From Escherichia coli (lineage in GTDB: Bacteria > Pseudomonadota > Gammaproteobacteria > Enterobacterales > Enterobacteriaceae): 64,000 nt of DNA. This document shows positions 39,701 through 42,700 of this stretch, one piece after another. Each line of letters opens with the position of its first letter. Positions within the stretch are counted from its first letter, which is position 1. The stretch lies in the NCBI RefSeq assembly GCF_024223415.1, contig NZ_CP100500.1. One strand, given 5' to 3'. The position numbers are program-made.

Positions 39701-42700
39701 AGTTTCTCCAGAATATCTTCCGTTGTCATTTGATTCGCAATGCAGCTCAGAACCTGATGTTGCTTGCGCGAAAGTGACACATTCGCTTCAGGCACAGAGC
39801 AGTAACTGCCATTGATGAGTGCGACAAAATCAATGATAGTGATAGTCCGCGGAACAAAGGTCACCGGCACTTTCCCCAGGCAGCGTTTAATATTAAAGGG
39901 GGAGAAAATAATGACATGGACAGGTTTTAATCGTTCAATTTGAGTGAGAAAATTAGAATGAAATACATTATTCATTAATGTATCAATAATGACGAAGGCA
40001 TTCTGATGCAACATTACGTCGATCTCTTCTTCGTTCTGTATATGAACGACATTACCTTTACTCAGAATGTTTTTCATCGCGGTGAAGAACATCGTATCCC
40101 TGGTAATTATAAGAAACATAACCGACTCCTGGTGCGGACATTAACTTTATAATCAGTTTGCCAAAGGTAATTAACAGGACAGGGCTTATAATAATAATAG
40201 TTAGCTTACTGTATATTAATTTTATGTAATACATGATGCAGATGCTGAGAAAGCATCTGCATCTTTCGGTGGTGTTATTTGACCAGCTCAGGTGTTACCT
40301 GACTCACCGCATTGGTGTAGTAAGGCGCACCCCAGCCCGGTTCCGGCCAGAATGCACCATAGCCGTAATCCCACAGGTTATAGGTGGTATTAACTACTTC
40401 TCTCAAATGCCACACCTGGATGCCCTGCATATTCACTTCCAGGAAGTTATACGGGACTTTATTGATAAAGCCTGGTTGTTCACCCTGAATGGTACCGAGG
40501 ATGGTAACAAAGTGATTACGATAGTTCACTGGGTCAAGGAAGCCGCTTTGTCTGGCGAGCAGTCGGCCCTGATAGTTGGCTTCAATATCAGGCTTCGCAT
40601 AGCTATCCAACGGTAATACAGCGATTTCTAACAACGTATCCGTTTTGCCATTGATAACGTTGATAACCTTCCCACCAAAGCGCGCTTGTTGACCAACATA
40701 TAACCCCGGCTGGTTATGAACAGCAACAAAACTTTTTTGAATATCAGGTTGGTTATTGCCTTTGATATTTTGCGGAATTGAACTACATGCGGCAAGCAAA
40801 AATGAAAGGCTGAGTATGAGTGCACCTTTTGTCATGTTCATGTTACTATCCTTATCAACAAATATTAAAACCATAATAGATATTTCTTTATAGTTTTCAT
40901 CTGATTCTGAGGCGATATGCCTGATAGTAACGTAAACCTGTCTGATGTTTATATCCCTTCTGTTTAGTTCAATTCCGTTATTTTGGGGCGTGGCATGAGT
41001 ATCCATCGCCCCATAATATAACCCTTTGTTTTAAAATTACATAAAATCTATTTTTATTCAATGATTATAAAGTGCTAATAATCAATATTATGGTATTATA
41101 TTCTGATAATGATTTGATAAGCGAATTCTTTTACCAGACGGTATTTCTATTTCCACCCCATAATTTATATCTTTTTCATCAGGAAGTGGCCTCTTTAAAT
41201 AAGGCGTGCGTGACATTTTTTTGGGTTAAGCGTCTCGTATTGAAATACTTCGAATTGATATTCAGACATTTCTGCCCATGTTTGAATTTTATTGTATCGG
41301 GAGAGTGTCGTAAAGGCTTTAACTTGCTTATAACATTGTTTTTGGAATTCTTGCTGATATTTTAATATGTCGTTGTATGAAAGATTGGTTATCCTGGCCT
41401 CTAAAAATTTAATTATTGTCGAAGCAATTTCCGCTTTTGCTCGTAAAAAGTTGTCATTAATGGTTAATAATGTTGAAAATAAACCTTCGATTTGTTTGTC
41501 AAGATATTGTTCGTCTTTATATAATTTTGGGGTAGGGTGTTCTTTATGTGAAAAAATAGTGTCACCTAAATTTGCGTCAGTGAAATTTATATTAAGTAGA
41601 TCTTCGAAATAAAACCTTGACAAGGTTAGAACGAACCCGGACAGGTTCTGTCCTGTCATATTGAAATCAATAAAGTTGGTTCCGGCAAAGACTTTCATCC
41701 TGTTTTTATTTTCACTGTGCTCAATATATAACTTCGTCATTTTTTGATACAGGCTTTGAATATCTTTTATATTAGTCGGTAAGTCAGCTCGTTGTTCAGC
41801 AATAAAATTAGTATCTGAAAACATGGTTTGGACACTGAATATTACTGGTATTCCCTCTTCTACGCTAATTTTAGTTATGATTGCCTTGTCGGGTTTAGGA
41901 TTAGCGACAACAATGATTCGACATTCAGCACTTTTGTTCTTTTCGTATCTAATGTTATTAATTTGATTAAGTATTTCCTGTGCCTGCCGCGTAAGTGGTG
42001 TCGAACTTATCGATTCAATGTTAGTAATAAGACTTACAAGTTGAGCCACAACTTTTGAGTAGTCTGCATCTGTATATTTGGTGTTCGTGCGGCACGCATA
42101 AATTTGTGGGAGGTGTTGCCGCGCTAAATCATATTGTTCAGGGTTGTATCCTTCTCCAGAGAATGTGGAATTAATGGGTTGTTGTTCTTCCCGATTATCA
42201 CAAGGCCACATCGGTGTGTCTGGTGTTTTAACATTGTCGGTATCTGTTGTGCGGTTATAAATATCGCCGTGATATGTATTTATCATACCTGGGGTAAAGT
42301 CAATTGACATAACATTCCTTATTCATCATCTGTTTTATGCTAAGATTTTTAAATTGGATAATTAGAGCAGGAATGGATTTTCTTCTACGCACAATAAATA
42401 TCATGCGTCATATCTTCCTGATATAATTACCTTTGACTTCCCTTTTATCTCCACCCGGTAATATTTGTGTATAAAAAAGGGCATTGATAGTATCGTAAAG
42501 GAAAACGTTAACAACTATCAAAAAGCGCTCATTTTAAAAAGTTATGATGTTCTCCGATAGTGTGTGAAATGATATTTTTGTGATGTTTTAGATGTGTAAT
42601 AATGAACCAGGTTAAAGTGTATTTAAAAATGTGTTGTATTAGCGACTGAAATCTGCCTTTTAAAAAGGAGGAGGGTACTGAGACAAAGAGATATTGCTTC

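What the first reader, a model, noticed from the sequence alone, without database searches (positions are those of the whole stretch)
41195..42310. Pentapeptide-repeat protein of unknown function in an AT-rich block between slp and the ars region
The 371-aa ORF has a good RBS and a central run of at least nine consecutive 5-residue units with a hydrophobic residue at a fixed position ([45 protein letters not shown]). This is the hallmark of a right-handed quadrilateral beta-helix pentapeptide-repeat fold. Such folds occur in DNA-mimic proteins (Qnr, MfpA) and in some secreted effectors. It sits at the position of yhiS, which I recall as IS5-disrupted in K-12, so here the gene may be intact and expressed. 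Function is unknown.
Basis: partly seen in the sequence, partly recalled or inferred. Interest (0 to 1): 0.45.

Follow-up and report, generated by a model that had tools for sequence, protein, structure and literature searches.

The report
Frameshifted yhiS orphan with pentapeptide repeats
The ORF is the E. coli-only gene yhiS, which does carry a short pentapeptide-repeat segment, but this copy has lost its conserved tail to a one-base slip in a run of A's, and about half of E. coli genomes have broken the gene in some way, so it is a dispensable, decaying accessory gene of unknown function.

Summary
The 371-codon ORF exists at 41195-42310 on the minus strand, with an AAGGA ribosome-binding site. 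It has ten consecutive 5-residue units with F/L/M at a fixed position (F208-F253). None of 20,000 shuffles reached that run.

It is yhiS (O157 Sakai ECs_4376, EDL933 Z4907), lying between slp and the ars genes.

The repeat call is supported by sequence:
- Every hit outside the family in 1.84 billion proteins that I checked (10 of 12) is a true PF00805 protein, and all 12 align to YhiS ~200-280.
- The best matches among solved structures are pentapeptide beta-helices.

It is not proven. Pfam scores it below cut-off, and AlphaFold with the family alignment alone failed.

"Intact here" is only half right. There is no IS5, but the ancestral protein is 407 aa. The window has CCC-A7 where a 99.96 %-identical strain has CCC-A8. 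This replaces the conserved last 42 residues with 6 others.

In a systematic sample of 25 complete genomes, 12 were intact. The other 13 were broken by tract slips, a T-run deletion, IS5-family insertions or large deletions.

Alleles differ by up to 25 % in protein (dN/dS ~0.4), next to an invariant slp. No relative was found outside E. coli/Shigella, or on plasmids or phages.

A Qnr-like role is unlikely, and no homology to known repeat-bearing effectors extends beyond the repeats. Interest is low to moderate.

The parts
41195..42310 (-). The 371-codon ORF. It is a frameshifted allele of yhiS, the counterpart of ECs_4376 in O157:H7 Sakai and Z4907 in EDL933.
   Evidence: The exact protein is on record on at least 24 contigs.
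41216..41225 (-). The CCC-AAAAAAA tract, 10 nt long. In-frame alleles have 11 nt (C3A8 or C4A7). This is the site of the -1 frameshift. In frame 0 it reads CC A_AAA_AAA TGT.
41088..41216 (-). The ancestral C-terminal coding remainder, now in the -1 frame relative to the ORF. It is still open: [42 protein letters not shown] followed by a stop at 41088-41090.
   Evidence: It is identical to the tail of the 407-aa allele in L001.
41540..41701 (-). The pentapeptide-repeat block, residues 204-257, with ten pentads from F208 to F253.
41468..41539 (-). A linker after the repeats, residues 258-281 ([24 protein letters not shown]). It aligns with the QLYSTxSYxxKxL linker of the ~70-residue units in long environmental pentapeptide-repeat proteins.
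41551..41556 (-). A T6 run in codons 252-254. It is intact here. It is the site of a 1-nt deletion that inactivates the gene in other strains (sample hits H3, H5, H6, H8).
42316..42320 (-). The Shine-Dalgarno-like AAGGA, 5 nt upstream of the ATG at 42308-42310.
42311..42889 (.). The AT-rich intergenic region upstream of yhiS. It corresponds to the K-12 arsC/yhiS 'promoter island' that is reported to bind H-NS.
   Evidence: for composition. PMC3661553 and bioRxiv 10.64898/2026.02.10.705075 for K-12. The consensus promoter scan found no more sites than in shuffles.

Best explanation
The ORF is a C-terminally truncated frameshift allele of yhiS. yhiS is an AT-rich accessory gene seen only in E. 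coli and Shigella, so it was presumably acquired horizontally.

The ancestral product is a 407-aa soluble protein with no signal peptide and no membrane segment. Its layout is:
- a T/D/N/P-rich N-terminus that could not be modelled;
- regions with no detectable relatives;
- one short pentapeptide-repeat module (residues ~204-257 plus a linker to ~281), about 2.5 turns of a quadrilateral beta-helix;
- a C-terminal part with no detectable relatives (weakly predicted as helical);
- a conserved 42-residue tail.

Shown:
- The window has lost one A from the CCC-A8 tract, so translation ends after 6 out-of-frame codons.
- The same tract has slipped on several different allele backgrounds.
- The gene is also destroyed by a T-run deletion, by IS5-family insertions and by large deletions. 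Only about half of complete genomes keep the 407-aa frame.
- Intact alleles show weak purifying selection (dN/dS ~0.4) and are far more diverged than the neighbouring genes.

Inferred:
- The repeat module acts as a small rigid surface for binding another protein, not as a DNA mimic.
- The gene is normally kept quiet by H-NS/StpA, as reported for K-12.
- It is needed only in some niches, so it is lost repeatedly.
- The window's copy is most likely a null or weakened allele.
For: Identity and synteny.

Frameshift:
- Homologues are mostly 407 aa and differ from the window only after ...NPKK.
- The downstream frame is still open to the ancestral stop.
- L001 shows only three substitutions and one single-base gap over the 10.3 kb around the gene. 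The only indel within yhiS is the extra A (A8), and L001 encodes 407 aa.
- The exact 371-aa protein is on at least 24 contigs. A sister sequence is on at least 1000 contigs, up to 5.56 Mb, in a cluster whose members include O157:H7 strains, so this is not a sequencing error.

Recurrence: the tract is C3A7 in the window, C4A6 in Sakai and H2, and C3A7 on another background with tail CHTRLI in H9. A fourth tail, CHTHLI, occurs in S. dysenteriae and one E. coli cluster.

Decay: in a systematic sample of 25 genomes, 12 are intact, 2 have a tract slip, 4 have the T-run deletion, 2 have IS5-family insertions and 5 are deletion remnants.

Selection: dN/dS is 0.40-0.46 and dS reaches 0.33 (0.58 in residues 258-365). 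For slp, dS is 0.03-0.05 and dN is ~0 (0-0.002).

Repeat module:
- The periodicity is not chance.
- Beyond the family's own full-length cluster and fragments, the profile search of 1.84 billion proteins hit 12 long proteins at E 1e-7 to 1e-3. All 10 that were scanned are strong PF00805 proteins, and all 12 align to YhiS ~200-280.
- The best solved-structure matches are Rfr32 2F3L (E 0.005), TL15 and QnrB1.
- AlphaFold of residues 186-295 gave pLDDT 78-83 over 206-255, and the top ~30 Foldseek hits are all pentapeptide beta-helices.

Restricted range: none of 100,044 species representatives has it. No phage has it, and the only three 'plasmid' matches are 4.8-4.9 Mb records that look like mislabelled chromosomes.

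Soluble: the highest 19-residue hydropathy is 1.1.

H-NS/StpA binding at the K-12 locus: PMC3661553 and bioRxiv 10.64898/2026.02.10.705075.
Against: - Pfam PF00805 scores only 12 bits against a cut-off of 20.2.
- AlphaFold with the family-only alignment failed (mean pLDDT 35) and drew low-confidence helices in the repeat region.
- The better model used an alignment that I seeded with true pentapeptide-repeat segments, so it is not independent. No Foldseek hit reached E <= 0.001.
- No expression, binding-partner or phenotype data exist for an intact allele.
- H-NS silencing is taken from K-12, where the gene is disrupted.
- The truncated 371-aa form is kept open in the whole O157:H7 lineage, so loss of function is inferred, not shown.
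- dN/dS of 0.4 fits both weak constraint and a mix of constrained and free sites.
Confidence: 0.65

Rival explanations
1. YhiS is, or was, a secreted substrate or effector of a type III secretion system (ETT2 or LEE). It would have an unstructured N-terminal secretion signal and a short pentapeptide-repeat module, as in EspY3, PipB2 or EspX7/NleL. It would be decaying because the secretion system it depended on is decaying.
For: - The N-terminal 56 residues are rich in T/D/N/P and could not be modelled.
- There is no Sec signal or membrane segment.
- EspY3 of O157 carries similarly short blocks of 8 and 9 pentads (PMC6313403; Pfam hit).
- NleL and SopA use a pentapeptide beta-helix domain (PMC3013003).
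- The gene is AT-rich, restricted to E. coli and repeatedly inactivated.
- The strains that carry only a remnant also carry chu genes. From memory, B2 strains also lack ETT2; I did not test this.
Against: - The profile-profile comparison with EspY3 matches only 20 columns inside the repeats, with probability 3.4 %.
- The family profile found no NleL, SopA or PipB chain in the PDB at E <= 10.
- The gene is not in a pathogenicity island or prophage. It sits at the same chromosomal site in commensals and K-12.
- No chaperone or secretion gene lies next to it.
- No secretion data exist.
Confidence: 0.12
2. YhiS is a Qnr/MfpA-type DNA mimic that binds gyrase or topoisomerase IV and changes quinolone susceptibility.
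For: Weak profile matches to QnrB1 (E ~2) and Foldseek matches to MfpA, AlbG and QnrB1 among many other pentapeptide-repeat proteins.
Against: - Only ~10 pentads (~50 residues, ~2.5 coils) sit in a 407-aa protein whose other parts have no relatives. From general knowledge, Qnr, MfpA and AlbG are ~180-220-aa proteins made almost wholly of repeats, which dimerise into a DNA-sized rod.
- The closest sequence relatives are units of long environmental repeat proteins, several with weak, sub-threshold PEP-CTERM or dockerin matches, not Qnr.
Confidence: 0.03
3. The A-tract allele is not a null. A -1 ribosomal slip on the in-frame A_AAA_AAA heptamer, or RNA-polymerase slippage on A7, restores some full-length YhiS. 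The tract would then work as a tuning or contingency switch.
For: - In frame 0 the window reads CC A_AAA_AAA TGT. A -1 shift gives ...[13 protein letters not shown]..., which is exactly the 407-aa protein.
- The downstream frame is fully open.
- Slips at this tract recur on several backgrounds.
- Within one clone both A8 and A7 exist.
Against: - No stimulatory structure lies downstream: the 92-nt fold has z = -0.51, and 52 of 200 shuffles fold at least as well.
- No Shine-Dalgarno-like element lies upstream in the sequence.
- The O157 tract is C4A6, which is not a full slippery heptamer.
- An open downstream frame is expected anyway after a recent mutation.
- The gene is also destroyed by irreversible events such as IS insertions and deletions.
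Confidence: 0.07
4. The ORF is not a real gene. It is a chance open frame in AT-rich, H-NS-bound 'promoter island' DNA.
For: It has no family annotation and no known function. The region is AT-rich and reported to bind H-NS. It is frequently disrupted.
Against: - A 407-codon frame is kept open in 12 of 25 sampled genomes even though dS reaches 0.33-0.58 in ~34-36 % GC DNA.
- dN is well below dS in every pairwise comparison.
- The start codon and ribosome-binding site are conserved.
- The central module is significantly similar to real repeat proteins.
Confidence: 0.05

Closest known systems
YhiS of E. coli K-12 (b3504, UniProt P37635; pseudogene yhiS_1/yhiS_2)
   Same: Same locus between slp and ars. 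It is about 87-92 % identical in protein sequence, with the same repeat block. With the IS5 removed, the K-12 sequence reads as an open 407-codon frame.
   Different: K-12 is split by IS5 and keeps the A8 tract. The window has no IS but has the -1 tract slip. K-12 also lacks the ArsP-like permease / ArsR pair that the window has.
ECs_4376 (NP_312403.1) of O157:H7 Sakai, Z4907 of EDL933
   Same: A 371-aa product, 98 % identical, with the same premature end ...[10 protein letters not shown]. It is annotated as hypothetical or unknown.
   Different: The tract is C4A6 rather than C3A7, so the slip probably arose separately from a C4A7 allele. Sakai has no permease / ArsR pair between this gene and arsC.
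Generic pentapeptide-repeat proteins (Pfam PF00805; solved examples Rfr32 2F3L/2G0Y, TL15 3N90; long environmental proteins labelled 'YjbI with pentapeptide repeats')
   Same: Ten in-register pentads with the motifs xGQNLSG and NFTDANL. The linker [13 protein letters not shown] aligns with QLYSTxSYxxKxL of the ~70-residue units. Identity to those units is 28-47 %.
   Different: There is only one unit, embedded in a protein whose other ~330 residues have no detectable relatives. It scores below the Pfam cut-off.
EspY3 (ECs0472), PipB2, and EspX7/NleL/SopA: type III effectors with pentapeptide repeats
   Same: A short repeat block inside a larger protein that is otherwise not repetitive. EspY3 has blocks of 8 and 9 pentads (PMC6313403). 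The N-terminus is unstructured.
   Different: There is no similarity outside the repeats. There is no WEX5F or HECT-like domain, and no NleL, SopA or PipB hit in the PDB profile search. The gene is at a conserved chromosomal site, not in an island.
Qnr / MfpA / AlbG topoisomerase-protecting proteins
   Same: They share the pentapeptide motif class.
   Different: Those proteins are almost entirely repeats and dimerise into a DNA-like rod. YhiS has ~2.5 coils only.

Membership tests
YhiS family (E. coli/Shigella orphan) | Located between slp and the ars genes, with at least 75 % protein identity to other members | tested here: met
YhiS family (E. coli/Shigella orphan) | Full-length 407-aa frame including the conserved C-terminal tail | tested here: not met
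   The window encodes 371 aa because of C3A7 instead of C3A8.
Pentapeptide repeat family (Pfam PF00805) | Tandem 5-residue units with a hydrophobic F/L/M at a fixed position, about 8 or more copies | tested here: met
   Ten units from F208 to F253. None of 20,000 shuffles reached this.
Pentapeptide repeat family (Pfam PF00805) | Score at or above the Pfam gathering cut-off | tested here: not met
   About 12 bits against 20.2, E 0.14-0.22, for four alleles.
Pentapeptide repeat family (Pfam PF00805) | Significant profile similarity to confirmed members | tested here: met
   The family profile hit 12 long proteins outside the family at E 1e-7 to 1e-3. The 10 I scanned are all strong PF00805 proteins. 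All 12 align to residues ~200-280. Rfr32 2F3L scores E 0.005.
Pentapeptide repeat family (Pfam PF00805) | Right-handed quadrilateral beta-helix fold | tested here: inconclusive
   The family-only AlphaFold run gave pLDDT 35. The run with repeat segments added gave pLDDT 78-83 over residues 206-255. The top Foldseek hits are all pentapeptide helices, but the best E is 0.35.
Qnr/MfpA/AlbG DNA-mimic pentapeptide proteins | The protein is almost wholly repeats (about 180-220 aa, many coils) and forms a DNA-sized rod | tested here: not met
   Only ~54 of 407 residues are repeats.
Qnr/MfpA/AlbG DNA-mimic pentapeptide proteins | Protects gyrase or topoisomerase IV from quinolones or albicidin | not testable with these tools
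   This needs MIC or enzyme assays.
Pentapeptide-repeat type III effectors (EspY3/PipB2; EspX7/NleL/SopA) | Homology in the non-repeat domains (WEX5F N-domain, or HECT-like C-domain with a catalytic Cys) | tested here: not met
   hhalign against EspY3 matched 20 columns with probability 3.4 %. No NleL, SopA or PipB chain appeared at E <= 10.
Pentapeptide-repeat type III effectors (EspY3/PipB2; EspX7/NleL/SopA) | Secretion or translocation that depends on a type III system | not testable with these tools
   No secretion predictor or experiment is available here. The N-terminal composition is only suggestive.

The most novel reading that the evidence does not exclude
YhiS is a relic secreted substrate of an E. 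coli secretion system that is itself decaying (for example ETT2). Its repeated loss tracks the loss of that system. The CCC-A8 tract would act as a reversible on/off or leaky switch, with a -1 slip on A_AAA_AAA restoring the full protein.
Probability: 0.08. Interest if true: 0.55.

Novelty: new member of a known kind. Interest (0 to 1): 0.27.

Why it matters
The value is mostly in tidying up.
- It gives a structural handle, a single short pentapeptide-repeat unit, to a long-standing y-gene that databases list as hypothetical with no domain.
- It shows that the O157:H7 and window form is a truncated frameshift allele of a 407-aa protein.
- It shows that automated pseudogene flags at this locus are inconsistent: intact 407-aa alleles are marked 'frameshifted', and some 371-aa alleles are not.
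- The locus is a compact example of repeated gene loss by at least five routes, beside the conserved acid-fitness genes. This makes yhiS a candidate niche-specific or once host-directed factor, worth a targeted experiment in a strain with an intact allele.

None of this overturns current understanding.

Tried and rejected
- AlphaFold of the repaired 407-aa protein with 44 family sequences gave pLDDT 35, which is unusable. I ran no fold search on it.
- A weak match to isochorismatase 5ZN8 (E 0.02 with the single sequence, residues 144-211, including K..FAGT) got weaker with the family profile (E 0.18). Neither Pfam nor the 1.84-billion-protein search backed it, so I rejected it.
- NCBIfam, PADLOC and PHROGs gave no hit.
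- The genome-contig scans, with peptide patterns and with a degenerate FYFEDLLN[IV]NF DNA pattern, found no relative in 100,044 species representatives. E. coli's own representative also gave no hit, which would fit a remnant-type strain; I did not check this.
- tblastn found nothing in phages. The three 'plasmid' hits are 4.8-4.9 Mb records, evidently mislabelled chromosomes.
- Rfam found nothing credible in 39500-44500.
- The promoter and terminator scans found no more sites than shuffles.
- The RNA fold downstream of the A-tract shows no structure beyond shuffles.
- Literature on yhiS, ECs4376 and Z4907 gives only mentions as a pseudogene or unknown gene.
- The Tobe et al. 2006 effector survey is not in the held library.
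- PGAP 'frameshifted' flags cannot be used as a state call: H1 and H15 translate to an intact 407 aa.
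Full report

Yes. A 371-codon ATG-started ORF occupies 42310 to 41195 on the minus strand. AAGGA lies 5 nt upstream of the ATG. With F253 included there are ten consecutive positions with F/L/M at exact 5-residue spacing, from F208 to F253. None of 20,000 shuffles of the protein reached a run of ten for F/L/M, and 5 did for F/L/M/I/V.

The ORF is 35.7 % GC. The block 40842-42889 is 33.9 % GC, against 48.4 % for the whole window.

**2. What is the locus?**

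Megablast against 5,426 complete E. coli genomes finds the region in 5,416 of them, always on the chromosome. The order in the window is chuA, chuS, dctR, slp, this ORF, an ArsP-type permease (PF03773), an ArsR/HTH_20 regulator, then arsC, arsB and arsR.

In K-12-type genomes the same gene is split by IS5. This is yhiS (PMC11677980 and PMC8170033). In O157:H7 Sakai it is ECs_4376, 371 aa. In EDL933 it is Z4907, described only as an "unknown gene" bordering the acid fitness island (PMC9729726).

**3. The ORF is a frameshift allele.**

Most homologues are 407 aa. They match the window protein up to ...NPKK and then continue MS(R/H/Y)(T/A)PYLKR...HYQNIIP. The window instead ends CHARLI*.

- The DNA reads AAC CCA AAA AAA TGT (CCC-A7).
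- In the -1 frame, starting at the last A of the tract, there is an open frame encoding [42 protein letters not shown], down to 41088.
- O78 strain 3 (L001) shows only three substitutions and one single-base gap over the 10.3 kb around the gene. The only indel within yhiS is the extra A (CCC-A8), and that strain encodes 407 aa.

This is not an assembly error. The exact 371-aa protein is on at least 24 contigs from independent NCBI and Logan assemblies. A sister sequence in the same 90 % cluster is on at least 1000 contigs, up to 5.56 Mb, and the cluster includes named O157:H7 strains.

The lost tail is conserved. Of its 42 positions, 24 are invariant across 44 alleles.

**4. How the gene fares across E. 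coli.**

The "spread" listing is a systematic sample of 25 genomes. I fetched 22 of them and translated them.

| State | Genomes | Sample hits |
|---|---|---|
| Intact, 407 aa | 12 | H1, H4, H7, H11, H12, H14-H20 |
| Tract one base short, 371 aa | 2 | H2 (C4A6, as in Sakai); H9 (C3A7, tail CHTRLI, different background) |
| 1-nt deletion in the T6 run at codons 252-254 | 4 | H3, H5, H6, H8 (H8 also has a stop at codon 44) |
| IS5-family insertion, at different sites | 2 | H10, H13 |
| Deletion remnant | 5 | H21-H24 (~42 % of the query; only H21 was fetched, H22-H24 are classed from their coverage); H25 (between two IS1 copies) |

In-frame tracts are C3A8 or C4A7. The frameshifted tracts C3A7 and C4A6, and a further tail CHTHLI seen in S. 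dysenteriae and one E. coli cluster, therefore point to several independent slips.

PGAP's flags are unreliable here. H1 and H15 are marked "frameshifted" but translate to an intact 407 aa.

**5. Divergence and selection.**

Between intact alleles dN/dS is 0.40-0.46. dS runs from 0.085 to 0.33 overall and reaches 0.58 in residues 258-365. For the same strain pairs, slp has dS 0.03-0.05 and dN of 0-0.002, and dctR has dN 0.005-0.007. The Slp protein is identical (WP_001057453.1) in nearly all sampled strains.

The alleles look mosaic. For example, L007 has the N-terminus of one class and the middle of another.

So this is a real coding gene under weak constraint. Its allele classes are far older than the divergence of its neighbours.

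**6. Range.**

A profile of the family was searched against 1.84 billion representative proteins. It found one full-length cluster (E. coli) plus fragments. All named homologues are E. coli or Shigella. Two scans of one genome per species, 100,044 species in all, found nothing. Phages gave no hit. The three "plasmid" hits are 4.8-4.9 Mb records, evidently mislabelled chromosomes.

**7. The repeat module.**

Evidence for:
- Beyond the family's own cluster and fragments, the profile search hit 12 long proteins at E 1e-7 to 1e-3. All 10 that I scanned are strong PF00805 proteins, scoring 123-297 bits.
- Re-running the profile on all 12 shows every stretch scoring 9 bits or more overlapping YhiS ~204-257, with some reaching ~280 and two extending to ~329.
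- An alignment shows that YhiS 204-281 corresponds to one unit of a ~70-residue super-repeat (...DLTGWDFSGQNLT...LTDANFTDA...F...QLYSTxSYxxKxL). YhiS has [21 protein letters not shown] and [13 protein letters not shown].
- Two of these relatives are labelled "YjbI with pentapeptide repeats" by their source; the others I looked up carry no name.
- Against solved structures, the profile's best hits are pentapeptide beta-helices: Rfr32 2F3L at E 0.005, TL15 3N90 at 0.06, and QnrB1 at ~2.

Evidence against or missing:
- Pfam scores the protein at 12 bits, against a 20.2 cut-off.
- AlphaFold with the 44-sequence family alignment failed, with pLDDT 35.

A second model covered residues 186-295. Its alignment included 23 repeat segments from the distant hits, so it is not independent of the repeat prior. 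It gave pLDDT 78-83 over residues 206-255 and pTM 0.60. Its top ~30 Foldseek matches in the PDB are all pentapeptide helices, for example 5DQA_C at rmsd 1.4 Å over 51 columns and 2F3L at 2.1 Å over 43. None reached E <= 0.001.

I conclude that a short pentapeptide-repeat module is well supported by sequence, and that its fold is plausible but unconfirmed.

**8. What it is not.**

- **Qnr/MfpA-like:** only ~54 of 407 residues are repeats.
- **EspY3:** the profile-profile match covers 20 columns inside the repeats, with probability 3.4 %. EspY3 itself scores 62 bits on PF00805.
- **NleL, SopA, PipB:** absent from the PDB profile hits at E <= 10.
- **Defence systems, phage families, NCBIfam:** no hit.
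- **Secreted by Sec, or a membrane protein:** no signal peptide or membrane segment; the highest 19-residue hydropathy is 1.1.

**9. Regulation (literature only, all from K-12).**

- The arsC/yhiS and insH/slp intergenic regions are listed as H-NS-binding "promoter islands" (PMC3661553).
- yhiS is named among sites of high StpA and H-NS affinity (bioRxiv 10.64898/2026.02.10.705075).
- YdeO overexpression induced slp-dctR but not yhiS (PMC4222967).

The consensus promoter scan of the window found no more sites than in shuffles.

**10. Could the frameshift be bypassed?**

In frame 0 the tract is a perfect A_AAA_AAA heptamer. A -1 shift would recreate the 407-aa protein exactly.

Three things argue against a programmed bypass:
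- The 92 nt downstream fold no better than shuffles, with z = -0.51.
- The O157 allele (C4A6) is not a full heptamer.
- The gene is also lost by irreversible events.

I treat bypass as a low-probability reading.

**11. Verdict.**

It is partly wrong: the gene is not intact here, and a Qnr-like role is unlikely.

The most likely picture has four parts.
- yhiS is an AT-rich accessory gene found only in E. coli and Shigella. It is presumably of foreign origin and silenced by H-NS.
- It encodes a soluble protein with one small beta-helical repeat module, which I infer to be a protein-binding surface.
- It is under weak constraint and is lost repeatedly.
- The window carries a truncated allele, probably null or weakened.

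Function remains untested. Interest is low to moderate.

Noticed in passing
window 36515-38451 (junction at ~38239/38240): chuA is split into ORFs of 593 aa and 52 aa. The cause is a 46-bp deletion relative to O78 strain 3, between direct repeats CCGATCGCTCA. The same split appears in an independent Logan assembly (L012). The haem receptor is probably inactive in this strain.
   Followed up: partly
window 42890-43903 (-) and 43947-44306 (+): An ArsP_1-family permease (PF03773, with a TPFCSCS motif and Cys-rich loop) and a divergently transcribed ArsR/HTH_20 regulator lie between yhiS and arsC. The pair is absent from K-12 and O157 Sakai, present in many other strains, and hit by an IS5-family element in strain MB22. 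It looks like an optional extra arsenic or organoarsenical module.
   Followed up: partly
L001 6196-7312; L024 493-1609; compare L015 496-1611 and L020 496-1611: RefSeq/PGAP marks intact 407-aa yhiS alleles as 'frameshifted' pseudogenes (H1, H15), yet annotates some 371-aa frameshift alleles as ordinary proteins (H2, H9). Pseudogene flags at this locus depend on which reference protein was used.
   Followed up: yes
window 40842-42889, compared with L002, L004 and L005: The yhiS block is hyper-divergent between strains (dS up to 0.33 overall, 0.58 in one part; protein identity down to 75 %) and the alleles look mosaic. The adjacent Slp protein is identical across almost all sampled strains. This suggests old allele classes shuffled by recombination.
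   Followed up: partly
window 44314-44398: There are sub-threshold Rfam matches to naRNA4 and ES036 (REP-derived small RNAs) on both strands, between the ArsR-like gene and arsC. It is probably a REP element.
   Followed up: no
L029 3183-4909 (strain SCU-172): Here the yhiS region is reduced to a 184-bp fragment between two IS1A copies. This is another independent route of loss.
   Followed up: no
YhiS residues 144-211 (window ~41678-41881): There is a weak similarity to an isochorismatase-family structure (5ZN8), including a K..FAGT motif: E 0.02 with the single sequence and 0.18 with the family profile. I judged it to be chance.
   Followed up: partly
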